In this document: positions 16,729 to 24,390 of the stretch, piece after piece
How the letters are laid out: each line of letters begins with the position of its first letter
Position numbering within the stretch: the first letter of the stretch is position 1
Source: a virus
Length of the DNA: 42,825 bases
Strand: one strand, 5' to 3'
Virus record (IMG/VR): IMGVR_UViG_3300045988_031260
Notes under the pieces: model-generated
The model's database searches: none
Told to the model about the DNA's origin: nothing
What the model saw: the letters and a program-made list of their open reading frames with translations, nothing else
Made by a program: the position numbers and the translations under genes

Positions 16729-17190
16729 ATGAGCAAAAAATACACACTTCCTGCAGATGTGCGCCTTGAGTGCATCGCCTATGTCAGAGGCTATCCCCGG
16801 AGGGTAAAGGCATACAACGATGCGCGGAACGAGATTCTATACGGCAGCAAGAGTGCGGACGGTATGCCCCACTCCCCCGGCATTGGTAGGCCAGCAGAGG
16901 GCAAGGCGGAACAGCTTGCGGACATAGAAAACTGGGCGGAAACCAAGAAAATGCGGGCTGTAGAATACGCCATAGACCGCTGCGGGCGGGGTTTGGAGAG
17001 TGAGAGCATCCGTAAACAGCTTACACAGGGGATCATGCGCAACTGTCAGGGCAAGCACAAGTATTCCCGCAATAGGATTATCGTGCCGGGGATAAGCGAG
17101 CGGACATTCAGCCGGAGGAAAGAGCAATTTCTCTATGACATAGCCATATATTGTGGTTTTGCAGAGAAAGTTGGCACAAATTCCACCTAA
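16729..17190 (+). CDS. RinA/ArpU-like late-gene transcriptional regulator (putative)
   Basis: Position just upstream of the packaging module. C-terminal HTH-like GISERTFSRRKEQFLYDIAIYCG. Confidence 0.5.
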   Translation: MSKKYTLPADVRLECIAYVRGYPRRVKAYNDARNEILYGSKSADGMPHSPGIGRPAEGKAEQLADIENWAETKKMRAVEYAIDRCGRGLESESIRKQLTQGIMRNCQGKHKYSRNRIIVPGISERTFSRRKEQFLYDIAIYCGFAEKVGTNST

Positions 17191-17428
17191 TGATGTGCTA
17201 CAATAGGTACAGTGGATGATAAGGAATAGTCATCCACCCGTCTTTCCACTCAACCCGTTTCCTCCATCTTATGCGCCGCCGGTATTGGGCGCACCTTCTG
17301 GCACCGAAAGGTCATACCGGCACAAACAGCCTGTAGGGAAACCTATGGGCTGTTGTCATATGCCGTGCGCTCGTTGCACCCCACGATCAGGGGCGGGAGG
17401 TCGCACCTCCCACACGGCACCTATATAT

Positions 17429-17521
17429 GCAGGTGTAGCTCAGTCGGTAGAGCTTTATCGCACGAAGGGATATGCGATTGAATGCCCTTGGTCGCTGGTT
17501 CGAGTCCAGCCGCCTGCGCCA
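17429..17521 (+). tRNA. tRNA-like element with canonical acceptor, D and T arms and encoded CCA, but a non-canonical 40-nt central region (isotype undetermined)
   Basis: Acceptor GCAGGTG/CGCCTGC, D-arm GCTC-AGTCGGTA-GAGC, T-arm GCTGG-TTCGAGT-CCAGC and GCCA end. The region 17454-17493 does not fold as a 5-bp/7-nt anticodon arm. Confidence 0.6.
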
Positions 17522-17915
17522 AACTCTAAACGGAGTCACCAACGGAGTATAAACAAGTGGGGCAACCGTGGAAACCGGGCATATATGCGGCATAGGCGCC
17601 CCGTAAGGGGAGGACACAGCGAGTGACGGGGACTTTCCCCGAAGCGCTAAAGCAGGGCAGGACTGCAATGCCGCACCAACCACACAAGCGGGCGAGGAAG
17701 CGCGAGAAGTTAAGCGCACACAAGCTGTGGCCACAGCGACGGACAGTTAATCCGCAAAAACAGTGTGCGGCTGACGAAAAGGCGCAGCGCGGTGTGGTGC
17801 CGAAATAACTGTGTAACCCATGTTTGAGAGCTTCCAGAAGGCCGCATGGGAGGGGAAAGACTGTTACTGTAGCCAAGGGGTGGGGGCTGGTGACAAACAA
17901 GGAGGAAAAACGACT

Positions 17916-18362
17916 ATGGAAATCATCAAACCCGGTAAAATCAGGAGAGTAAAACTGAAATGTCCGGAATGCGGGTGTGAATTCGCCTGTTCTCCGGTAG
18001 AAATGGTACGCAGATACGGAACTGTGTTTGCTAAGTGTCCACAGGAGGGATGTGGCAAAAGCGTGGAAGTGCCAAACGGAATCCCCGAGTACATCGAGCC
18101 TGCAAACCATACTGCCATTGGAACGATCACTGTGGTGCTGTCAGGGGCAACCGTTACAGAAGAGCCTGTAGGCGATGAGCGGTATATCACAAGGGTGACG
18201 AATGTATCGAAGGAAGCTGCAGAGCATATCAAAGCACTGGGCGCAGATACCAGCATCTCCCTGATGATTGATGGCAAATACCCGGAGCGCTTCTACATGG
18301 GAAATACCGGGATGCTTATCGCCTACGAGGCCCACGATGGAAAACTCTACGAACAGGAGTGA
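17916..18362 (+). CDS. Zinc-ribbon hypothetical protein (148 aa)
   Basis: AAGGAGGAAAAA RBS. CPECG...CPQEGCG. Confidence 0.7.
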   Translation: MEIIKPGKIRRVKLKCPECGCEFACSPVEMVRRYGTVFAKCPQEGCGKSVEVPNGIPEYIEPANHTAIGTITVVLSGATVTEEPVGDERYITRVTNVSKEAAEHIKALGADTSISLMIDGKYPERFYMGNTGMLIAYEAHDGKLYEQE

Positions 18363-18368
18363 TACATA

Positions 18369-18938
18369 ATGGCTACAGAGAAACCTACCGCCATCGCAAA
18401 AACAAAGGATAACCGACCGGAGACCGGCAGAGGCGGCAAAAGAAACTTCCCTTCCAGCCTCCCTGACCTCAGCAGCGATGAAGATAGAGCACTTGTATCT
18501 CAACTCCTTACAGAGGTACTTGTAGAGTATAAACAACCAAAGGTAAAGAGTGACGAAGAACTCAAGGAGAGAATAAACGACTATTACGCACGCTGCGCAC
18601 AGACAGGCCAGACCCCTACAGTAGAGGAACTATTCCTGTCTACCGGCTACGCAATTAGCACGGTTAAGGACTGGGAATACGGGAGACGCAAGGGATTTAG
18701 CCCCGAAACAGCGGCCATAATTAAAAAAGCCAAGGGTTTTATGCAGACTTTTGACGCAAAACTTGTGGTTTCCGGGAAGCTGAATTTCCTTGCATATTGC
18801 TTCCGTGCCAAGAACTATTACGGCATGGTAGACAAGCAGGAGATGGTTTTGACCCCGAACCAGCCGCAGATTGAGGGCTTGACCCCTGAACAGCTCCAGC
18901 AGAAGTACATTGCAGCCAGCGACTTTGATGTAAAATGA
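18369..18938 (+). CDS. terS: Terminase small subunit
   Basis: INDYYARCAQTGQTPTVEELFLSTGYAISTVKDWEYG...FRAKNYYGMVDKQE resembles gp3-type small terminases. Sits at the head of the late region. Confidence 0.75.
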   Translation: MATEKPTAIAKTKDNRPETGRGGKRNFPSSLPDLSSDEDRALVSQLLTEVLVEYKQPKVKSDEELKERINDYYARCAQTGQTPTVEELFLSTGYAISTVKDWEYGRRKGFSPETAAIIKKAKGFMQTFDAKLVVSGKLNFLAYCFRAKNYYGMVDKQEMVLTPNQPQIEGLTPEQLQQKYIAASDFDVK

Positions 18939-19150
18939 GCCGAAACCGAGCGACTTTTACACGACTTTCCGTCAATTCTGGGAAAGTAGGCAAGTGAAAC
19001 CCCGCGTTTATACACGGAATTTTGTAAACGACTATGATTTTGGGGTAAAATGAGCGACTTTGGCGCAGACGCTTGCGACTTTCACAGCGACTATGCCAGC
19101 GACTTTTGCGACTTCCCCGGCGACTCTGGTAGCGACTTTGGCAGCGAGGT
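18918..19150 (+). repeat. Iteron array of at least 9 GCGACT(T/A/C)(T/A/C) copies, mostly at 12-bp spacing
   Basis: GCGACT starts at 18919, 18950, 19054, 19075, 19087, 19099, 19108, 19120 and 19132, plus ACGACT at 18961 and 19028. The first copy lies in the last codons of terS. Confidence 0.85.
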
Positions 19151-19428
19151 ACGCCACCCCCGGAATCCCTGGCCAGCATGGAGGGGTCCACACCACCAGC
19201 CACCGAGACCGCGCCACCGAGCAGGGGCCAGCCACCGACAAGGCCACAGGGGCAAAAGGGCGGCGGCAAGCTGGCAGCGCAAGCGGCAAGCCACGGCGCA
19301 CGGGGCAACGCCACGCCATACGCCAACAAACAAGGCGCACAGCGCGCGCAGAGCGGTAGCAATATAGGGACAGCGCCCAGAGTTAAAGCGCCTTATAGGT
19401 GCGTTAAAATAGCAAATAAGGCATACAG

Positions 19429-19455
19429 AAAAAAGCCCCCGGAATACACCGGGAG
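19429..19455 (-). terminator. Intrinsic terminator of the leftward island operon
   Basis: The minus strand reads CTCCCGG-TGTATT-CCGGGGG followed by CTTTTTT. Confidence 0.8.
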
Positions 19456-19456
19456 C

Positions 19457-19491
19457 AAAGGGAAACCCCGCACAGCTTGCGCCATGCGGGG
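19457..19491 (-). terminator. Upstream tandem hairpin, a weaker terminator
   Basis: 7-bp stem CCCCGCA/TGCGGGG (19466-19472/19485-19491) followed on the minus strand by TTTCCCTTTG. Confidence 0.45.
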
Positions 19492-19579
19492 CGGTGGTCA
19501 TTTCTGGAGTTTTGCCAGATCGAAAAGTAAAAGAATAGGCTGCAACAGAATATACAACAGAATCAAGGGCGGCACCTCC

Positions 19580-19849
19580 TTACAGCTCCGTGACAAAGAC
19601 GCACATATCTTCATCACGGACAAACTCGCCTGACTCGGCATCATACGTACAGCATGCGCCCTCCTCGTCTGCGCTGTTCGCCGCGTCGATGCAATAGTCA
19701 ACATTGTCTACGGTATATGTGTCCGTATCCTCGTTGTAGGGTAGCGCCCCGGCGGTAAAGTAGTCGTTGCTCCAGTCCGGATCGTAACCGCTGCCGTTCC
19801 AGCGCTGTATCCTGATTTCCACCGTTTTCTTGCCGTCTGTAATTTTCAT
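19580..19849 (-). CDS. Small acidic hypothetical protein (89 aa), island operon gene 4
   Basis: ATG 19849 after AGGGGGA. MKITDGKKTVEIRIQRWNGSGYDPDWSNDYF... Confidence 0.7.
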   Translation of the reverse strand: MKITDGKKTVEIRIQRWNGSGYDPDWSNDYFTAGALPYNEDTDTYTVDNVDYCIDAANSADEEGACCTYDAESGEFVRDEDMCVFVTEL

Positions 19850-19895
19850 TTTTTTGTCCCCCTTTTTTTGATTGTACCACATCCGCCGGAGCGGG

Positions 19896-20162
19896 TCAAG
19901 CGAAAGTAAACCGGCGGGCGGTTGTCGTTTTTGTGTATCGGGCTGCGATCTCTGGCAGTTCCTTTTTCAGGGCGGTTGTGTCCACCCTGGAGGATGTAAC
20001 CGCCTTATAAGTGGCTTTGTGTTCTGACCCCGCCAGGGATTCAACCCCGGCGGCGGTCATGCGCTCTTTAAGCTGGTCTTTGAGGCTTTCCACCATTGCG
20101 GCGGCCTCCTCCTGCATGCGGATATACTGGGCCAGTTCGGCCATGATGGTATCAATGTTCAT
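19896..20162 (-). CDS. Small hypothetical protein (88 aa), island operon gene 3
   Basis: GGGGGA RBS, helical N-terminus, basic C-terminus. Confidence 0.7.
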   Translation of the reverse strand: MNIDTIMAELAQYIRMQEEAAAMVESLKDQLKERMTAAGVESLAGSEHKATYKAVTSSRVDTTALKKELPEIAARYTKTTTARRFTFA

Positions 20163-20174
20163 TGTAAATCCCCC

Positions 20175-20402
20175 TTAAAATATGCGGAAAAGATTGCTAT
20201 TCCGCGCGGTGATGGCGTAATATTCGCCCGTTTCGGTGTTCTGGATAAGTCCGCCGTTAATGCCGTATGTGCCGGAGCTGTAGCCGACCTTCTCGCCGTG
20301 CTTCCATTGCTCCATAACTTCGGCGGTGCTTGCGTTGGTCAAATCGTGCGCCATGCCGGAGCGGACAAGGCTTTTCAGCTCGGAAAGTTTGTATTTTCTC
20401 AT
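20175..20402 (-). CDS. Small hypothetical protein (75 aa), island operon gene 2
   Basis: Start overlaps the gene 1 stop (ATGA). Confidence 0.7.
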   Translation of the reverse strand: MRKYKLSELKSLVRSGMAHDLTNASTAEVMEQWKHGEKVGYSSGTYGINGGLIQNTETGEYYAITARNSNLFRIF

Positions 20403-20818
20403 GCCTGCACCTCCTGCCGGGCGGCCCGGATCGCCGAATACACGCGGCGGAAAGCCTGACGCAGCGCCCGGGCTTGCACATCAAGCCATTCTTCTTGGCT
20501 GTTCGGCCTGCGCTCCCCGTTGCGGGTCTTTTTGAGTTCGGAGGGGGTGCAGAGGGCGGCGGCGATGTCCCCATCATACACAAGGGCCGAGCCGCCCCAG
20601 CTGTATTGCTCCCAGTCCTGCGCACCGTTTAGGGCTGCGGCCTCGGCGGTAGTCCATGTTGCGAGATCGTCGGCGGAGATATAACCGTCTTTGTAGTATT
20701 CCGTGATCTGCTGCAGCATATCCACGGCATAGGCTGTAACGCCCCGGCTCCATGCGCTGCGGTCCTTGCGCTGTTCCAGTGTCTGCGCTACCTTTGCAAG
20801 TATTGTTGTATAATCCAT
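20399..20818 (-). CDS. Hypothetical protein (139 aa), island operon gene 1
   Basis: GGGAGG RBS 7 nt upstream of ATG 20818. Confidence 0.75.
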   Translation of the reverse strand: MDYTTILAKVAQTLEQRKDRSAWSRGVTAYAVDMLQQITEYYKDGYISADDLATWTTAEAAALNGAQDWEQYSWGGSALVYDGDIAAALCTPSELKKTRNGERRPNSQEEWLDVQARALRQAFRRVYSAIRAARQEVQA

Positions 20819-20850
20819 TGTATTACCTCCCGGACTTATGGCCTAATCTC

Positions 20851-20879
20851 TTGCCAACGGCTGCCGGATGTGGTATACT
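20851..20879 (+). promoter_or_regulatory. Strong sigma-70-type promoter firing rightward
   Basis: TTGCCA, a 17-nt spacer ending TGg, then TATACT (extended -10). Confidence 0.6.
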
Positions 20880-20965
20880 CTCCGTGCTGGCCTGTTGGCT
20901 GGTGTGGGGGCGTTCCCGGGTTGCATTGGCTGGCTACCGGGTGCGCCCTCGTCCTATATGCTGAT

Positions 20966-20994
20966 ATTATACTGCCCAATAGCGTATACGTCAA
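20966..20994 (-). promoter_or_regulatory. Near-consensus sigma-70-type promoter firing leftward into the 4-gene operon
   Basis: The minus strand reads TTGACG (20994-20989), a 17-nt spacer, then TATAAT (20971-20966). Confidence 0.7.
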
Positions 20995-21001
20995 TATCTT
21001 T

Positions 21002-21018
21002 TGGGCAAATAATGCCCA
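21002..21018. promoter_or_regulatory. Perfect dyad TGGGCA-N5-TGCCCA, with more half-sites nearby
   Basis: Further TGCCCA copies at 20973-20978 (inside the leftward promoter spacer) and 21059-21064, and TGGGCA at 21251-21256. Confidence 0.5.
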
Positions 21019-21265
21019 TATAAGATATACAATAATGTTATTGTGACATTGTGCATTATGCCCATTGCGGTATACCTGTGTGGGACAAGTGGGGCAAGCT
21101 TCTGCGGCTCTCGATCTCCGGCGGGAATGACCGGGGGCGGGGGATATGCGGCGTCAGCCGGGGGCGGGGTAAGCCCCAAAAATCCCGCAAAAAATAAAAA
21201 GCCATTTTTGCCCCATGTTGTAAAATCCGGCAAAAACAAAAGGACTATTTTGGGCATAAAACATA

Positions 21266-21294
21266 TTGACACAAATTATGCTGTGTGCTACACT
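21266..21294 (+). promoter_or_regulatory. Promoter of the serine recombinase gene
   Basis: TTGACA, a 17-nt spacer ending TGc, then TACACT. Confidence 0.6.
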
Positions 21295-21327
21295 ACCCTT
21301 ACAAGATGCAGGAAGGGAGCGATGCAC

Positions 21328-21915
21328 ATGAAAGTCGGATATATCCGGGTGTCCACGGAGGAGCAGAACACAATCCGCCAAGAGGTAATTATGCAAGACC
21401 TTGGAGTTGAGCGTGTCTACATTGACAAGGCCAGCGGGAAAAGCCGTACAGGCAGGCCGCAGCTGGAGGCAATGATGGATTTCGTCCGAGAGGGCGATGT
21501 GGTCATTGTTGAGAGCATCAGCCGGTTTGCGAGAAGCACGAGGGACTTGTTGACGCTGGTAGAACAGCTTACAGACAAAGGTGTGGGTTTTGTATCGCAG
21601 AAGGAATCCATTGACACGAACACGCCACAGGGCAAGTTCATGCTTACGGTGTTTGGCGCAATGGCGGAGCTGGAACGGGAGCAGACCTTACAGCGGCAGA
21701 GAGAAGGAATTGCGGCTGCAAAAGCGGCTGGGAAGTACAAAGGCCGTCAGCCGATAGCAATCAGCGATGATCTGCTTAAAACGGTGCATGAGCAGTGGTA
21801 CAAGAACGAAATTACCACGGCCTATGCGGTTAAGCGGCTGGGTGTAAGCCGGAACACCTTTTACCGCCGGATGTGGGACTACGAGGATTCCGCAGGGATT
21901 CCGAGACGGCGCTGA
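21328..21915 (+). CDS. Small serine recombinase (resolvase/invertase family) with C-terminal HTH
   Basis: MKVGYIRVSTEEQ catalytic-serine motif, VIVESISRFARS, FGAMAELEREQ and C-terminal AVKRLGVSRNTFYRR. Confidence 0.92.
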   Translation: MKVGYIRVSTEEQNTIRQEVIMQDLGVERVYIDKASGKSRTGRPQLEAMMDFVREGDVVIVESISRFARSTRDLLTLVEQLTDKGVGFVSQKESIDTNTPQGKFMLTVFGAMAELEREQTLQRQREGIAAAKAAGKYKGRQPIAISDDLLKTVHEQWYKNEITTAYAVKRLGVSRNTFYRRMWDYEDSAGIPRRR

Positions 21916-21931
21916 GAGGGGGAAAATAGGA

Positions 21932-22666
21932 ATGAAAAAAGCGAATCCTGCCAAGCAGAAGAAAATGATAATCGTATTAGCCATTCTGCTAATCGTTACC
22001 CTTGCTGTTGCATACAGCAACAAAGATGAGAGCCCTGACACATCGGGAGAGTTTGATGTAAGCGGCAGTGAATCTGTGGAAGAACTGTCGGACATTGTAA
22101 GTGATGGGATTGCAGAAAGGCTTGTTTCTTTCGGCATGACAGAAGATGAGGCACAGGCCGGCCGAGATATTCTGCGTATGTGTGGGGTGGACTCCATTTC
22201 CGGATGTGAGCCAACAGACGCATCGGCATCGGTTGATGGACTTGTGGTATTCCGCGAAGTAGTGGACAAGGACAGAGTGTTCTGGTTCACGGTAGACCAC
22301 CGAGAGATTATTTATGTATCCCTGAATGGAACGGACCTATATGACAAAGACAAGGGCGGGTTCTTGATGACGATAGACGATGTACATGTGCCGGAATCCT
22401 CTGTGCCATACAATGTTTATCGACAGTTGCAATACATGACAGAGACTGTCCTTGACCGATACTTTGTAAGCGCAAAATACTACGACGCATGGGGCATTGG
22501 CCGCGCGGATGAAAAATACATGGTGCAGTGCGAGGTATATGCGTCAAACGCGCTCAAGGTGAAATTCTGGGTTCCGGCAAAGGTCTGGTATGAAGATCAA
22601 GGAAATGGCGAATTTGTTGTTACAGGCGTACAGATTGATGGCACGCAGTACGAAGTGAAGCCGTAA
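21932..22666 (+). CDS. Membrane-anchored (signal-anchor) protein with a ~200-aa external domain
   Basis: Basic N-terminus MKKANPAKQKK followed by MIIVLAILLIVTLAVA. No lipobox cysteine. Confidence 0.75.
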   Translation: MKKANPAKQKKMIIVLAILLIVTLAVAYSNKDESPDTSGEFDVSGSESVEELSDIVSDGIAERLVSFGMTEDEAQAGRDILRMCGVDSISGCEPTDASASVDGLVVFREVVDKDRVFWFTVDHREIIYVSLNGTDLYDKDKGGFLMTIDDVHVPESSVPYNVYRQLQYMTETVLDRYFVSAKYYDAWGIGRADEKYMVQCEVYASNALKVKFWVPAKVWYEDQGNGEFVVTGVQIDGTQYEVKP

Positions 22667-22689
22667 AGGTTCCGCAAAAACCAAATAGA

Positions 22690-22725
22690 ATGGACTACCG
22701 ATTATTCGGCAGTCCATTTTTTATT
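22690..22725 (+). terminator. Intrinsic terminator 13 nt upstream of the terL start
   Basis: 11-bp stem with one mismatch, ATGGACTACCG/CGGCAGTCCAT, followed by TTTTTATT. Confidence 0.75.
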
Positions 22726-22737
22726 GCAGGAGGACGA

Positions 22738-24390
22738 ATGGATTATCGGAAGATTGCGGAAAGCATCAAAAACCGCATAGAGAAAACGCATGACCGAGAA
22801 GCCTACAAGGATTTGCTGGCGTTGTGTATTGGGTACGAAGCGGAGGATTTTGCTGCGGCGCACCAGTTAAATTCAGAAGTCCGAAAGATGACATCCGAAG
22901 CGTTGCGTAACGGAAACCCGAAAGACGCGGAGCATTTCTACACGCTGCACAAGCAAGCTATGCTGTTTGACGCACCGCATGATTTCGATACCTTCCTGCT
23001 GTATGTGGAGATGGACAGAAAGCCGGAGAAGCGGTTTTATGCTCCACGCAGGCGGTATCTAAGACCTATTGTGCAGGGGTATCAAGATGTCCTTGACGGC
23101 AAGTTAAGGTTGCTGACCATTTCCTTGCCGAAAAGAGCCGGGAAAAGCCAGCTGGGGATAAATTTCATCAACATGATGTCCGGCAGAAACCCGGATAAAT
23201 CGTCCCTTATGGAAGGCACAGGCGATGACCTTGTGCGGAGCTTCTACAACGGATGTTTGGAGTATCTGCAAACGCCCAACGAGTATTTATTCTACGATGT
23301 GTTTCCGGATGCTCCCTTGGTGCAGACCAACGCAGACACGAAAATCATCAATCTGCGTTCAAAATCTCGATTCCCTACGGTCATGTGCCGGTCGATTGAC
23401 GCACGGCAGGTGGGTTTGTCGGAGGCAACCAATGTCCTGTACTTGGATGACTGCGTGGAGGGCAGAGAGGAAGCGAAAAACCGTCAACGGCTGGATGATA
23501 AGTGGGAAGTAATTTCCGGCGATATTTTAGGCCGTGCCATAGAGGGTACACCTATTGTGGCCACCGGGACGAGATACTCCCTATATGACCCCATAGGGCA
23601 TTTACAGGAAGAAGCACAAAAAGGCGGCTGGGCATGGAAAGCCATTGAAATCCCCGCCCTTGACCCAATTACAGACGAAAGCAATTATGAGTACGAGCGA
23701 GAGGGGAAAAAGGTTTTTACCACCGCTTATTTCCGTGAGCAAAGGGAGCTTCTGAGCGCGGAACAGTTTGAAAGCGAATTTCAGCAGCAGCCCTTTGAAG
23801 CAAAGGGGCTGCTTTTCAATAAGTCGGAGCTGAACTATTTCTTTGAACTGCCGGTAGATCGTGACCCGGATGCAATCATTGCCGTGGCAGACACCGCAGA
23901 AAGCGGAAAAGATAGCACGGCCATGCCTGTTGCGGCCTTATATGGAGAGGAAGTCTACATTGTGGATGTGGTGTACGATGATTCTCCCGCAGAGGTCACA
24001 AAGCCGGAATGCGCAAGGTGCCTGATTGATAACAAGGTGGGAGACGCACTGTTTGAATCCAATAACGCCGGTATGTATTTTGCGAGAGATGTTGCAGAAA
24101 TCGTCAAAAACGCCGGATTTAATACCAGCATACGGACAAAAAGGACGATTTCCAATAAGCAGACACGAATTGAGTTCGCATCGGATGGAATCAAGAAGAA
24201 TTTTTACTTCAAGCATCCGTCCACATACAAGCGAGGGTGTCAATACTGGGGATTCATGCAGGAAGTGACCACCTATGTAAGAAGCGGCAAAGTGGCGCAC
24301 GATGACGCGCCTGATTCCTTGTCGTTGCTGGAGAACGAAATCCGAAACCGCATCAGCGGCAAGATTGAGATATTCAAAAGACCGTTTTAA
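22738..24390 (+). CDS. terL: Terminase large subunit
   Basis: Walker A-like LPKRAGKS, Walker B VLYLDD, and nuclease-domain motifs AVADTAESGKDS and HDDAPDSL. Confidence 0.92.
   Translation: MDYRKIAESIKNRIEKTHDREAYKDLLALCIGYEAEDFAAAHQLNSEVRKMTSEALRNGNPKDAEHFYTLHKQAMLFDAPHDFDTFLLYVEMDRKPEKRFYAPRRRYLRPIVQGYQDVLDGKLRLLTISLPKRAGKSQLGINFINMMSGRNPDKSSLMEGTGDDLVRSFYNGCLEYLQTPNEYLFYDVFPDAPLVQTNADTKIINLRSKSRFPTVMCRSIDARQVGLSEATNVLYLDDCVEGREEAKNRQRLDDKWEVISGDILGRAIEGTPIVATGTRYSLYDPIGHLQEEAQKGGWAWKAIEIPALDPITDESNYEYEREGKKVFTTAYFREQRELLSAEQFESEFQQQPFEAKGLLFNKSELNYFFELPVDRDPDAIIAVADTAESGKDSTAMPVAALYGEEVYIVDVVYDDSPAEVTKPECARCLIDNKVGDALFESNNAGMYFARDVAEIVKNAGFNTSIRTKRTISNKQTRIEFASDGIKKNFYFKHPSTYKRGCQYWGFMQEVTTYVRSGKVAHDDAPDSLSLLENEIRNRISGKIEIFKRPF

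What the first reader, a model, noticed from the sequence alone, without database searches (positions are those of the whole stretch)
17191..17915. A 725-bp ORF-free, hairpin-dense region between the late regulator and the packaging genes: candidate large structured RNA
No RBS-supported ORF exists between 17190 and 17916. The ORF-track entries run through the tRNA-like element or are Arg/Pro-rich shadows. The stretch is packed with stable local helices:

- 17212-17219/17230-17237 (8 bp)
- 17278-17285/17314-17321 (8 bp)
- 17327-17337/17342-17352 (11 bp with a GAAA tetraloop)
- 17395-17401/17405-17411 (7 bp)
- 17627-17632/17636-17641 (6 bp)
- a CCCC-GTAA-GGGG hairpin at 17599-17610

The tRNA-like element lies in the middle. 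Large ornate RNAs of phage or prophage origin (the GOLLD and ROOL classes) are reported to sit next to tRNA genes, but I cannot verify membership by eye. The region may also hold the late promoter controlled by the upstream RinA-like protein.
Basis: partly seen in the sequence, partly recalled or inferred. Interest (0 to 1): 0.75.

Follow-up and report, generated by a model that had tools for sequence, protein, structure and literature searches.

The report
Shuffled tRNA-like RNA array in phage
The 725-base gap is not one giant RNA: it is a string of small, separately folding RNA modules, two of them transfer-RNA look-alikes that cannot decode, which related human-gut phages swap like cassettes just upstream of their DNA-packaging genes.

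Summary
All six helices sit at the stated coordinates, no conserved ORF exists, and a tRNA-like element lies in the middle. The GOLLD/ROOL reading does not hold. Rfam finds only tRNA (17429-17518, 45.3 bits).

About 240 related leaders from gut phages show more than 100 different module orders. No conserved long-range fold can therefore exist.

The window reads: candidate extended -10 promoter, 5' hairpin, M1, M2, M3, spacer, M4, V1, M5, RBS.

- **M3 (17429-17521)** has an intact tRNA-Arg-type acceptor, D and T frame plus CCA. Its "anticodon" domain is 40 nt and non-canonical. Relatives carry at least eight different domains, or none, in the same frame.
- **M4 (17587-17678)** is an undescribed cloverleaf ending in ACCA. 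Sixteen of its 28 pairs change on both sides, against 2.1 in shuffles.
- **M2** is also supported by covariation.

Best reading: an accessory array of non-decoding tRNA mimics, probably co-transcribed with the late genes and cut out like tRNAs. A decoy role against tRNA-targeting defences is a guess.

Rivals are decaying tRNA genes, a cis-regulatory leader, and a small basic peptide.

The parts
16729..17190 (+). Flank only, not part of the RNA array.
   Evidence: phrog_248 'transcriptional activator', E = 1.2e-5. No Pfam or NCBIfam hit.
17196..17204 (+). Candidate extended -10 promoter TGcTACAAT with no -35 box. The predicted transcription start is near 17211.
   Evidence: Read from the sequence. 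M0 is almost invariant in 80 relatives, including the most divergent group. A like motif, TGgTACAAT, lies upstream of a minus-strand gene at about 19879. Inferred, not tested; the sigma-70 scan that requires a -35 box did not flag it.
17212..17237 (+). 5'-proximal hairpin GTGGATGA(T)/(G)TCATCCAC, 8-9 bp, at the predicted 5' end of the transcript.
   Evidence: The stem is kept in relatives apart from one G.U change.
17258..17265 (+). Pyrimidine tract TTTCCTCC, complementary to the RBS segment GGAGGAAA at 17901-17908. Possible long-range anti-RBS pairing.
   Evidence: The full-length minimum-free-energy fold pairs the 5' pyrimidine-rich part with the 3' end. The CCTCC core is kept where its flanks vary. 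No covariation test was possible.
17273..17358 (+). Module M1: 8-bp helix 17278-17285/17314-17321 enclosing a replaceable inner hairpin, then a 12-bp GAAA-loop hairpin 17326-17353 followed by UGUUGUCAUAU.
   Evidence: z = -3.83. Pairs are 95-100% kept in 38 distinct variants, mostly through G.U-compatible one-sided changes. The inner hairpin is replaced by a different hairpin in one group.
17362..17418 (+). Module M2: small four-way junction. Closing stem GCCGTG/CACGGC with three hairpins: a weak one, CCCC-ACGAUCA-GGGG, and GGGAGGU-CGC-ACCUCCC.
   Evidence: In 23 distinct sequences, 96.6% of cells pair. Seven of 19 pairs change on both sides, against 3.4 in shuffles (0/500) and 0-2 in slid controls. 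It is also present in an unrelated phage backbone (L002).
17429..17521 (+). Module M3: 93-nt tRNA-like RNA. It has a canonical 7-bp acceptor stem, D arm (GCTC/GAGC with G18 G19), T arm (GCTGG-TTCGAGT-CCAGC), discriminator G and encoded CCA. The 40-nt third domain (17454-17493) is non-canonical. Candidate helices there are 17457-17462/17473-17478 and 17465-17469/17485-17489; they cannot both be nested, so they form either a pseudoknot or alternative folds.
   Evidence: RF00005 scores 45.3 bits with 34 nt where the model expects 17. ARAGORN's 'Val-CAC' needs a mismatched stem and has G33 in place of U33. The frame matches tRNA-Arg of unrelated bacteria. Frame stems are 88-100% paired with compensatory changes across 34 distinct frames. 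AAGGG/CCCTT changes to AATGG/CCATT in relatives.
17522..17586 (+). Spacer S: poorly structured linker with a direct repeat AACGGAGT x2. It ends in CATATAT just before M4.
   Evidence: z = +0.53. It follows a canonical tRNA-Gln in L001 and a tRNA-Trp in L096.
17587..17678 (+). Module M4: 92-nt cloverleaf-shaped RNA.
- 7-bp terminal stem GCGGCAU/AUGCCGC, then A and CCA.
- Arm 1: GGC-G-CCCC-GUAA-GGGG.
- Arm 2: AGCG-[AGUGA]-CGGGGA-CUU-UCCCCG-[AAG]-CGCU, with an invariant internal loop.
- Arm 3: GCAG-GGCAGGA-CUGC.
It has no tRNA T-loop or D-loop consensus.
   Evidence: z = -3.18. In 57 distinct sequences 97.9% of cells pair and 16 of 28 pairs change on both sides, against 2.1 +/- 1.2 in shuffles (0/500) and 2-7 in slid controls. 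Of 304 copies (132 distinct), 87% end in N-CCA, and homology between relatives stops right after it. No Rfam hit.
17679..17775 (+). Variable segment V1, present only in a subset of relatives. It overlaps the unsupported ORFs at 17623-17808 and 17668-17808.
   Evidence: z = -1.52.
17776..17915 (+). Module M5: the 3' end of the region, with its core near 17806-17897. It contains hairpin CCCATG...CATGGG (17817-17850), a second TGnTAC motif (TGTTACTGT, 17862-17870), the G-rich CCAAGGGGTGGGGGCTGGT (17873-17891), and the RBS AAGGAGG (17899-17905) of the first late ORF.
   Evidence: It is almost invariant in 130 leaders that carry at least four different downstream first genes. The inner hairpin CUUC/GAAG is replaced by GCCC/GGGC. 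The motif hits more than 120 IMG/VR contigs. It persists when the upstream array is followed by a terminator or by an inserted gene.
17916..18362 (+). First downstream ORF (148 aa, Cys-rich N-terminus) with a strong RBS. Flank only.
   Evidence: No family hit. Called as a gene in public contigs.
18369..18938 (+). Small terminase subunit. Flank only.
   Evidence: PF16677 at 32.7 bits; phrog_606.

Best explanation
The region is a non-coding accessory locus at the head of the late (packaging) operon of a roughly 42-kb human-gut phage. It consists of small RNA modules that fold on their own on the + strand.

**Shown**
- Three modules are supported by compensatory base changes: M2, M4 and the frame of M3.
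- M3 keeps everything a tRNA needs to be recognised by its elbow and acceptor end: acceptor stem, D and T arms, and CCA. Its anticodon arm is replaced by a 40-nt non-decoding domain.
- Relatives hold at least eight different domains, or none at all, in the same tRNA-Arg-type frame.
- M4 is a different cloverleaf that ends in NCCA.
- The modules are exchanged between phages as cassettes. Breakpoints fall at the '..TAT|G' starts, in the conserved T arm, and just after CCA.

**Inferred**
- The array is transcribed rightwards from the TGcTACAAT extended -10 promoter at 17196-17204, in this phage probably together with the late genes.
- The modules are released by the host tRNA-processing machinery: RNase P at U(-1)|G(+1), and RNase Z, exonucleases or the CCA-adding enzyme at the 3' ends. 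This would give stable RNAs of about 55-95 nt.

**Speculative**
- These RNAs act as tRNA mimics or decoys for factors that read the tRNA elbow, acceptor stem or CCA end rather than the anticodon. One example is tRNA-targeting anti-phage effectors that are switched on when late proteins appear.
For: **Non-coding**
- No called genes in the gap.
- No coding signature in the candidate ORFs.

**RNA-level, strand-specific structure**
- M4: 97.9% of cells paired; 16 of 28 pairs with double changes against 2.1 in shuffles. Many G.U pairs would be A.C mismatches on the other strand.
- M2: 7 of 19 pairs with double changes against 3.4 in shuffles.
- tRNA frame: compensatory changes in the acceptor, D and T stems.
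- M1 helices are kept.

**tRNA kinship**
- RF00005 scores 41-52 bits for the odd elements, against 60-66 bits for the canonical tRNA-Gln and tRNA-Trp at the same locus in L001.
- The frame matches tRNA-Arg.

**Not decoders**
- No element has a canonical 5-bp stem with a 7-nt U33 loop.
- Two relatives lack the arm altogether.

**Module ends behave like tRNA ends**
- 87% of 304 M4 copies end in NCCA, and homology stops there.
- ATATGC occurs four times on the + strand within 230 nt, three of them at module starts, against 18 on the + strand of the whole 42.8-kb window.

**Cassette behaviour and accessory status**
- More than 100 architectures in 239 leaders.
- Chimeric acceptor stems carry G.U pairs where 5' and 3' halves come from different types.
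- A Rha-like gene is inserted in L281, which has an identical activator protein.
- The same modules occur behind an unrelated upstream gene in L002.
- The array is very common in human-gut metagenomes.

**Background for the decoy idea**
- Phage tRNAs are proposed or shown to counter tRNA-targeting defences (PMC10264068; PMC11464382; PMC11555353).
- toxSAS effectors modify the CCA end and inspect the acceptor stem (bioRxiv 10.1101/2024.07.05.602228).
Against: - No expression or processing data exist. The promoter, the cleavage sites and the stability of the products are all inferred from sequence.
- M4 and M2 lack the T-loop/D-loop elbow that RNase P, RNase Z and the CCA-adding enzyme normally use. 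Their tRNA-likeness is topology plus NCCA only.
- M2 ends in ACC/ACA, not CCA.
- Relatives are close (82-99% in the flanking protein), so many 'double changes' trace back to few events. M2 is essentially two haplotypes.
- The third domain of M3 has only five variants and a single compensatory event.
- In some relatives M4 is followed at once by a terminator. Co-transcription with the late genes is therefore not general.
- Nothing links the array to any defence system, and the host is unknown.
Confidence: 0.42

Rival explanations
1. Decaying tRNA gene cluster. The locus is an ordinary phage tRNA island in which most genes have lost their anticodon arms and are drifting. The mosaic is only the footprint of recombination between repeated tRNA frames, and the products have no function.
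For: - Canonical tRNA-Gln(UUG) and tRNA-Trp(CCA) occupy the same locus in L001.
- Odd elements score below real tRNAs.
- There are arm-less deletion variants (L092, L140) and one with a duplicated T arm (L121).
- Chimeric acceptor stems carry G.U pairs.
Against: - The frames are kept intact, with compensatory changes, while only the third arm varies.
- M4 and M2 are not recognisable tRNA derivatives, yet they show strong covariation and a conserved NCCA.
- Each odd type is itself conserved across many contigs: type B in about 50 and type A in about 48.
- Drift would be expected to break acceptor and T stems as often as the anticodon arm.
Confidence: 0.2
2. Cis-acting leader. The structures regulate the late operon in cis. 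The M1 hairpin with its U-rich tail would act as an attenuator read through by the upstream regulator (lambda PR'-tR'/Q-like logic). The 5' hairpin would stabilise the mRNA. The CCUCC tract at 17258-17265 would mask the RBS at 17899-17908. M5 would be a regulatory 5' UTR.
For: - The position between the regulator gene and the first late gene.
- A conserved promoter-like motif and 5' hairpin.
- A 12-bp hairpin followed by UGUUGU(C/U)AUAU.
- An 8-nt anti-RBS complementarity, and a predicted 5'-3' pairing in the minimum-free-energy fold.
- M5 is almost invariant and always abuts the RBS, whatever the first gene is.
Against: - The middle modules (M2, M3, S, M4, V1) are present, absent or swapped among phages that share the same regulator and late genes. 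They cannot be required in cis.
- The terminator scan does not flag the M1 hairpin in the window.
- No covariation links the 5' tract to the RBS.
- This rival may well hold for M0, M1 and M5 alongside the main explanation for M2-M4.
Confidence: 0.2
3. One large ornate RNA of the GOLLD or ROOL kind.
For: - Size (725 nt), density of helices, a phage context and an adjacent tRNA-like element. GOLLD and ROOL are reported near tRNAs and in prophages (PMC5737381).
- z = -4.58 for the whole stretch.
Against: - No GOLLD, ROOL or other large-RNA hit even at E <= 10.
- Every supported helix is local.
- Modules are independently gained, lost and reordered, which is incompatible with a conserved multi-junction, pseudoknotted architecture.
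Confidence: 0.03
4. A small, highly basic peptide is encoded at 17668-17808 (46 aa, MPHQPHKRARKREKLS...) or from the GTG at 17623 (61 aa). It could be an arginine-rich RNA-binding peptide acting on the GNRA hairpins of the leader, in the manner of lambda N and boxB.
For: - The ORF is intact in 16 variants that carry V1.
- Within V1, 6 of 11 variable sites are synonymous.
- The KRARKR(E/K)KLS stretch is shared by two downstream classes, mostly through synonymous differences.
- An AGGA lies 5 nt upstream of the ATG.
- GNRA loops are present in M1 (GAAA) and M4 (GUAA).
Against: - Overall the variable sites fall 14/8/14 by codon position, with 13 synonymous and 23 non-synonymous.
- The ATG lies in the covarying terminal stem of M4 and is lost (ATT, GCG, ATA) exactly where the stem partner compensates.
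- ORF length ranges from 5 to 80 aa, with unrelated sequences in the other downstream classes.
- No family hit.
- Gene callers do not call it.
Confidence: 0.07
5. A DNA-level site, such as cos/pac or a replication origin, rather than RNA.
For: - The location just upstream of the small terminase gene, where cos sites often lie (general knowledge).
- M5 is conserved more strongly than the neighbouring coding DNA.
- Several metagenomic contigs break within the region.
Against: - Compensatory changes that preserve pairing, including abundant G.U pairs on the + strand only, point to RNA.
- tRNA-type tertiary nucleotides have no meaning in DNA.
- Contig breaks are expected at a hypervariable locus.
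- A better pac-like candidate, the GCGACTTT repeats, lies after terS.
Confidence: 0.05

Closest known systems
Phage tRNA gene clusters (T4, T5, mycobacteriophages), including phage tRNAs that bypass tRNA-targeting defences (PMC10264068, PMC11464382, PMC11555353)
   Same: - Tandem, same-strand cloverleaf genes in a phage.
- Canonical tRNA-Gln and tRNA-Trp occupy the same locus in a relative (L001).
- Encoded CCA and U(-1)|G(+1) junctions.
- Altered anticodon loops are also a theme in those phage tRNAs.
   Different: - In the window no member can decode. The anticodon arm of M3 is replaced by a 40-nt domain, and by at least eight other domains or nothing in relatives.
- M2 and M4 are cloverleaf-shaped but are not tRNA homologues by sequence.
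- The array is reshuffled between close relatives far more than a normal tRNA cluster.
Small stable RNAs co-encoded and co-processed with tRNAs in the phage T4 tRNA cluster (species 1 and 2, also called RNA C and D); recalled from memory, no paper retrieved
   Same: Non-tRNA small RNAs of unknown function that sit inside a phage tRNA transcription unit and mature by the tRNA-processing route.
   Different: There is no sequence relationship. The context here is the late-operon leader of a gut siphovirus-like phage, with cassette-like variability.
tRNA-like structures used as processing or mimicry signals: plant-virus 3' TLS, mascRNA/MALAT1, the tRNA-like domains of tmRNA and of bacterial YrlA Y-RNAs (general knowledge)
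   Same: An acceptor-stem/T-arm or NCCA mimic without a decoding anticodon, which can be recognised by RNase P, the CCA-adding enzyme and other tRNA-binding proteins.
   Different: - No Rfam hit to tmRNA, YrlA or any TLS family.
- M3 is a full tRNA frame rather than a pseudoknotted mimic.
- M4 lacks the T-loop.
GOLLD and ROOL large ornate RNAs (PMC5737381; PMC12286853)
   Same: Phage or prophage context and proximity to tRNA genes; a large structured non-coding stretch.
   Different: No model match, no conserved global architecture, and a modular mosaic of units of about 60-95 nt in place of a 580-800-nt multi-junction fold.

Membership tests
GOLLD RNA | Match to the Rfam covariance model | tested here: not met
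   No hit at gathering score in the window, nor at E <= 10 in 16900-18200. None in 20 relatives.
ROOL RNA | Match to the Rfam covariance model | tested here: not met
   No hit.
ROOL RNA | [quoted passage not shown] | tested here: not met
   Only local modules covary. Modules are independently present or absent in more than 100 architectures.
GOLLD/ROOL | Frequent location near tRNA genes and in prophages (PMC5737381) | tested here: met
   Phage genome with a tRNA-like element inside the region. This is context only and does not define membership.
Canonical (decoding) tRNA | Cloverleaf frame: 7-bp acceptor, D arm with G18 G19, T arm with the TTCGA loop, discriminator and CCA; Rfam RF00005 above its gathering score | tested here: met
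   M3 scores 45.3 bits against 29. The frame can be read directly and its stems covary across 34 distinct frames.
Canonical (decoding) tRNA | 5-bp anticodon stem and 7-nt loop with U33 and a purine at position 37 | tested here: not met
   Rfam has to skip 34 nt where 17 are expected. ARAGORN's stem is t-a, t+g, t+g, a.g, t-a with loop CGCACGA, so G33. The 'anticodon' changes (CAC, CGT, CGC, CGA) among near-identical copies.
Class II (long-variable-arm) tRNA | Normal anticodon arm plus a base-paired variable arm that accounts for a length of 85-93 nt | tested here: not met
   The length fits (93 nt), but the anticodon stem is poor. The only possible variable-arm pair, C47-G56, is broken by G56 changing to A or T in relatives, whereas 37-41/57-61 shows a compensatory change.
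tmRNA | tRNA-like domain with G3.U70 plus a tag reading frame; detection by ARAGORN or Rfam | tested here: not met
   ARAGORN finds no tmRNA. M3 has A3-U70. No Rfam hit.
Phage tRNA gene cluster | Tandem tRNA genes, at least some of them canonical, on one strand | tested here: inconclusive
   Met in the relative L001, with tRNA-Gln at 65.8 bits and tRNA-Trp at 60 bits. The window itself has only the non-canonical M3.
tRNA-like processing or mimicry element | Cleavage by RNase P and RNase Z, CCA addition, or binding by tRNA-specific proteins | not testable with these tools
   Only indirect signs are available: U(-1)|G(+1) junctions, conservation of NCCA, and homology breaks at the 3' end.
Intrinsic terminator or attenuator (M1 hairpin) | GC-rich stem followed by a run of U | tested here: not met
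   Not flagged by the scan in the window. The tail is UGUUGUCAUAU, and relatives have UGUUGUUAUAU.
Protein-coding small ORF | Conserved reading frame with an excess of third-position or synonymous change, and a family hit | tested here: not met
   No family hit. Not called as a gene in public contigs.

The most novel reading that the evidence does not exclude
M3-type 'anticodon-less' tRNA frames and the M4 cloverleaf form a new class of phage-encoded tRNA-mimic RNAs. They would be made alongside the late proteins and released by the host tRNA-processing enzymes. They would then titrate or jam immune effectors, or other host factors, that recognise the tRNA elbow, acceptor stem or CCA end. The cassette shuffling between phages would be the signature of an arms race fought with RNA decoys rather than proteins.
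Probability: 0.25. Interest if true: 0.85.

Novelty: new variant of a known kind. Interest (0 to 1): 0.6.

Why it matters
Phage tRNAs have recently been shown to rescue infection from tRNA-cleaving defences. This locus suggests a further step: tRNA frames stripped of decoding ability, plus unrelated NCCA-ended cloverleaves, maintained by selection and traded as cassettes in very common human-gut phages.

If these RNAs are processed and functional, they would be a new kind of non-coding accessory cargo, with candidate roles as decoys or as processing punctuation. They would also be a ready-made natural 'tRNA scaffold' system.

Automatic annotation would file M3 as an ordinary tRNA: ARAGORN labels it tRNA-Val and its near-identical copies tRNA-Thr, Ala or Ser. 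Gene callers also place spurious ORFs across the array: a 185-aa gene is called across it in L281, and the 136-aa ORF runs through M3 in the window.

Even if the RNAs are inert, the locus is a clear example of how repeated tRNA frames drive mosaicism in phage genomes.

Tried and rejected
- **Rfam at permissive thresholds** on the window and relatives. Only tRNA was found. The other hits (snoRNA, plastid UTR, a 13-nt CRISPR-repeat hairpin, lncRNA fragments) are chance matches far below their gathering scores.
- **Host or prophage search.** Neither the activator protein nor the frame pattern found a relative in one-genome-per-species contigs. The pattern hit only ordinary tRNA-Arg and tRNA-Gln of unrelated bacteria. 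TerL finds no cultured close relative. The host stays unknown.
- **Class II tRNA model and ARAGORN's Val-CAC model for M3.** Both rejected.
- **M3 middle domain as an antisense guide.** No complementary stretch of 10 nt or more exists elsewhere in the window.
- **Small-ORF explanations.** Rejected on codon-position pattern and lack of conservation across classes.
- **Fold z-score as a stand-alone test.** One coding control reached -3.04, so it is weak evidence.
- **Sigma-70 and terminator scans of the region.** Nothing above chance.
- **Literature searches** for tRNA-like phage RNAs, anti-defence RNAs and the T4 stable RNAs. No description of this locus was found.
- **Pseudoknot in M3.** The two helices are geometrically compatible with an H-type pseudoknot, but only one compensatory event supports one of them. 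It is left as a hypothesis.
Full report
**Setting.** The window is a roughly 42.8-kb phage genome from human-gut metagenomes. Contigs of 39-43 kb that carry the identical upstream protein are circularly permuted relative to each other. No cultured close relative exists. The region 17191-17915 lies between a 153-aa transcriptional-activator-like gene (phrog_248, E = 1.2e-5) and a 148-aa ORF with a strong RBS. That ORF is followed by the small terminase (PF16677).

**Check of the observation.**
- ARAGORN and Rfam both find a tRNA-like element at 17429-17521.
- The 725-nt stretch folds to -283 kcal/mol with z = -4.58 on the + strand and -3.10 on the - strand. Coding controls of the same length gave -0.45, -1.14 and -3.04, so thermodynamics alone is only suggestive.
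- Gene callers left the gap empty in 7 of 8 public contigs.
- The 61-aa ORF at 17623-17808 has no third-position bias (14/8/14; 13 synonymous against 23 non-synonymous). The reading frame that starts at the ATG inside M4 has a different length (5-80 aa) and sequence in each class of downstream DNA.

**Known families.** Rfam release 15 gives only RF00005 (45.3 bits) in the whole window. It gives nothing credible at E <= 10 in the 1.3 kb around the region. Twenty relatives give only tRNA hits, and a relative with extra modules gives nothing else. GOLLD and ROOL membership is therefore rejected on the model test. [quoted passage not shown]

**The region is a mosaic.** BLAST against 80 IMG/VR relatives found through the activator protein shows blocks of homology. 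The blocks end at 17363, 17420/17433, 17570-17584, 17714 and 17776/17848. Three further scans brought the data set to about 400 loci:
- the conserved T-arm/acceptor pattern;
- the 3' motif CCAAGGGGYGGGGGCTGGT, with more than 120 hits;
- the M4 core in metagenomes, with more than 120 human-gut contigs.

A module map of 239 leaders shows more than 100 different architectures. The order is loosely conserved: M0, M1, [M2], [M2b], [tRNA-like of type A, B, C, E or L7], [X], [tRNA-Trp], [M4], [V1 or other], [Y], M5. The window reads M0-M1-M2-tA-S-M4-V1-M5.

The same modules occur behind an unrelated upstream gene, an XRE-type HTH, in MT835513. One contig with a 100% identical activator protein has a Rha-like gene inserted before M5. 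Some relatives have, right after M4, a bidirectional terminator and a strong minus-strand promoter. The middle of the region is therefore accessory cargo, not an obligatory cis element. No conserved long-range fold is possible.

**M3, the tRNA-like element (17429-17521).**
- *Intact frame.* The acceptor stem, D arm (with G18 G19), T arm (TTCGAGT loop), discriminator and encoded CCA are all canonical. The frame matches tRNA-Arg genes of unrelated bacteria.
- *Aberrant third domain.* Between the D and T arms lie 40 nt instead of about 22. Rfam skips 34 nt where 17 are expected. ARAGORN's 'Val-CAC' rests on a mismatched stem and G33. Near-identical copies are called Thr, Ala or Ser.
- *Relatives.* In the same slot and the same frame, relatives carry at least eight unrelated third domains (types B, C, E, F, H, L052, L002, L7). 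Two have no third arm at all (L092, L140).
- *Frame covariation.* Across 34 distinct frames the acceptor, D and T stems stay 88-100% paired. Compensatory changes include G5-C68 to A5-U68, the T stem GCUGG/CCAGC to GCAGG/CCUGC, and the D stem GCUC/GAGC to CCUC/GAGG.
- *Chimeras.* Chimeric 5' and 3' halves give G.U pairs. This shows recombination inside the conserved T arm.
- *Inside the type A domain.* Two helices are possible, 17457-62/17473-78 and 17465-69/17485-89. The second shows one compensatory change (AAGGG/CCCTT to AATGG/CCATT) with one intermediate. Only five variants exist in all the data. A class II variable-arm model is contradicted by free variation at the position it would pair.

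**M4 (17587-17678).** This 92-nt element folds as a four-way junction. It has a 7-bp terminal stem GCGGCAU/AUGCCGC followed by A-CCA, and three arms.
- On 57 distinct sequences, 97.9% of cells pair. Sixteen of 28 pairs change on both sides, against 2.1 +/- 1.2 in shuffles (0 of 500) and 2-7 in slid controls.
- Abundant G.U pairs make the structure specific to the + strand.
- Of 304 copies (132 distinct), 87% end in N-CCA. Similarity between relatives stops right after it.
- The internal loop AGUGA/GAAG and the junction CUAAAG are invariant.
- M4 has no tRNA T-loop or D-loop consensus and matches no Rfam family.

**Other modules.**
- M2 (17362-17418) is a smaller four-way junction: 96.6% paired, with 7 of 19 pairs changing on both sides against 3.4 in shuffles. 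These derive from few haplotypes.
- The two helices of M1 are kept through wobble-compatible changes, and its inner hairpin is replaced by another hairpin in one group.
- M5 is almost invariant in 130 leaders and always abuts the RBS of whichever first gene follows. One inner hairpin is swapped for a complementary variant.
- S and V1 show little structure.

**Boundaries.** Each module in the window starts with G right after a TAT. The junctions are 17272|3, 17361|2, 17428|9 and 17586|7. ATATGC occurs four times on the + strand within 230 nt here, against 18 on the + strand of the whole window. U(-1)/G(+1) is the usual context of bacterial RNase P cleavage (general knowledge).

**Transcription (inferred).** TGcTACAAT at 17196-17204 is a textbook extended -10 element without a -35 box, as expected for an activator-dependent promoter. 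It lies in the most conserved part of M0. A like motif precedes a minus-strand gene at about 19879. A second TGnTAC motif lies in M5 (17862-17870). No experiment supports either.

**Interpretation.** The best-supported description is an accessory, cassette-like array of small structured RNAs at the head of the late operon. Two of them (M3, M4) imitate the parts of a tRNA that are read by processing enzymes and acceptor-end binders, and they lack a decoding anticodon arm. I infer transcription from the M0 promoter and excision by the tRNA-processing machinery.

I consider a decoy or mimic role the most attractive function, for three reasons. Selection keeps the frame while the anticodon domain is free. 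The locus turns over as counter-defence loci do. Several anti-phage effectors act on tRNA acceptor ends or anticodon loops (PMC10264068, PMC11464382, PMC11555353, bioRxiv 10.1101/2024.07.05.602228). This last step is speculation.

The main rivals are a decaying tRNA island without function and a cis-regulatory leader. The leader reading is probably true at least for M0, M1 and M5: the anti-RBS tract TTTCCTCC at 17258-17265 faces GGAGGAAA at 17901-17908. A small basic peptide, a DNA-level site and a single ornate RNA are unlikely.

**Verdict.** The finding is a new variant of a known kind, namely phage tRNA and tRNA-like genes. M4, M2 and the anticodon-less frames have, as far as I could find, not been described.

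Noticed in passing
window 18918-19139: Seven same-strand copies of (A/T)GCGACT(T/A)T lie within 220 nt, starting inside the last codons of the small terminase gene. In the whole window there are 23 matches at <= 1 mismatch, against 8.8 +/- 3.3 expected, and all exact copies are clustered here. This is a candidate pac or terS-binding site, or iterons.
   Followed up: partly
window 19000-22690: The small terminase (18369-18938) and large terminase (22690-24390) genes are separated by about 3.7 kb. This island holds four small minus-strand ORFs (19580-20818) and a serine recombinase/DNA invertase gene (21043-21915, phrog_125).
   Followed up: partly
L007 3779-3955; L001 3283-3470; L025 3975-4150: Module X (about 180 nt, absent from the window) often follows the tRNA-like element. 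It has several hairpins with apparent compensatory changes (GAGGATGCGTCCTC, GGGGATGCGTCCCC, GTCTTGATGCGTCAAGAC) and two GACAAT motifs. It has no Rfam hit.
   Followed up: partly
L003 4051-4355; L002 3191-3500: Module Y (about 300 nt, absent from the window) follows tRNA-Trp-like or type E/F elements in many leaders. It is shared between otherwise unrelated phages and has no Rfam hit. It may be the largest structured unit of this locus.
   Followed up: no
L064 4085-4233 (also L085, L086, L065): In the variants where M4 ends in ACAA instead of ACCA, it is followed at once by a bidirectional intrinsic terminator (AAAAAGAGCGGAAGYTCCGCTCTTTTT). Just beyond it lies a strong minus-strand promoter (TTGACA-17-TATGAT, 11 of 12). 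This looks like an inserted antisense sRNA gene of about 100 nt.
   Followed up: partly
L281 3584-4231: A contig with a 100% identical activator protein carries a Rha-like or anti-repressor gene (215 aa, phrog_2657) between the RNA array and M5. The '185-aa gene' called upstream of it starts in the non-coding modules M0/M1 and has no family hit, so it is probably a spurious ORF across the array.
   Followed up: yes
L007 3704-3779 (type L7, in about 40 loci); L001 2954-3028: The commonest tRNA-like type in relatives has a G3.U70 pair plus A73, the identity pair for alanyl-tRNA synthetase. It scores 24.6 bits on RF00005. The otherwise canonical tRNA-Gln(UUG) of L001 also has G3.U70. Read by eye, not tested.
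   Followed up: no
L025 3894-3970 and other loci: Several relatives carry a 77-nt tRNA-Trp(CCA) with a normal anticodon arm but a D stem made only of G.U pairs. A further variant (L004 3969-4041) is missed by ARAGORN and scores 29 bits on the tRNA-Sec model.
   Followed up: no
L121 (IMGVR_UViG_3300045988_040233): A type A element with a tandemly duplicated T arm (...GAGTCCAGCCGT TGGTCGCTGGTTCGAGTCCAGCC...). This is direct evidence of slippage or recombination within the conserved T arm.
   Followed up: no
window 17470-17475: The junction motif ATATGC that precedes M2, M3 and M4 also occurs inside the odd third domain of M3 (GGGATATGCGAT). The type A domain may have arisen by fusion with the start of another module.
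   Followed up: no
window 17618-17648: Arm 2 of M4 contains an invariant asymmetric internal loop, AGUGA opposite (G)AAG. It resembles a sarcin-ricin or loop-E type bulged-G module (resemblance from memory only) and may be a protein-binding site.
   Followed up: no
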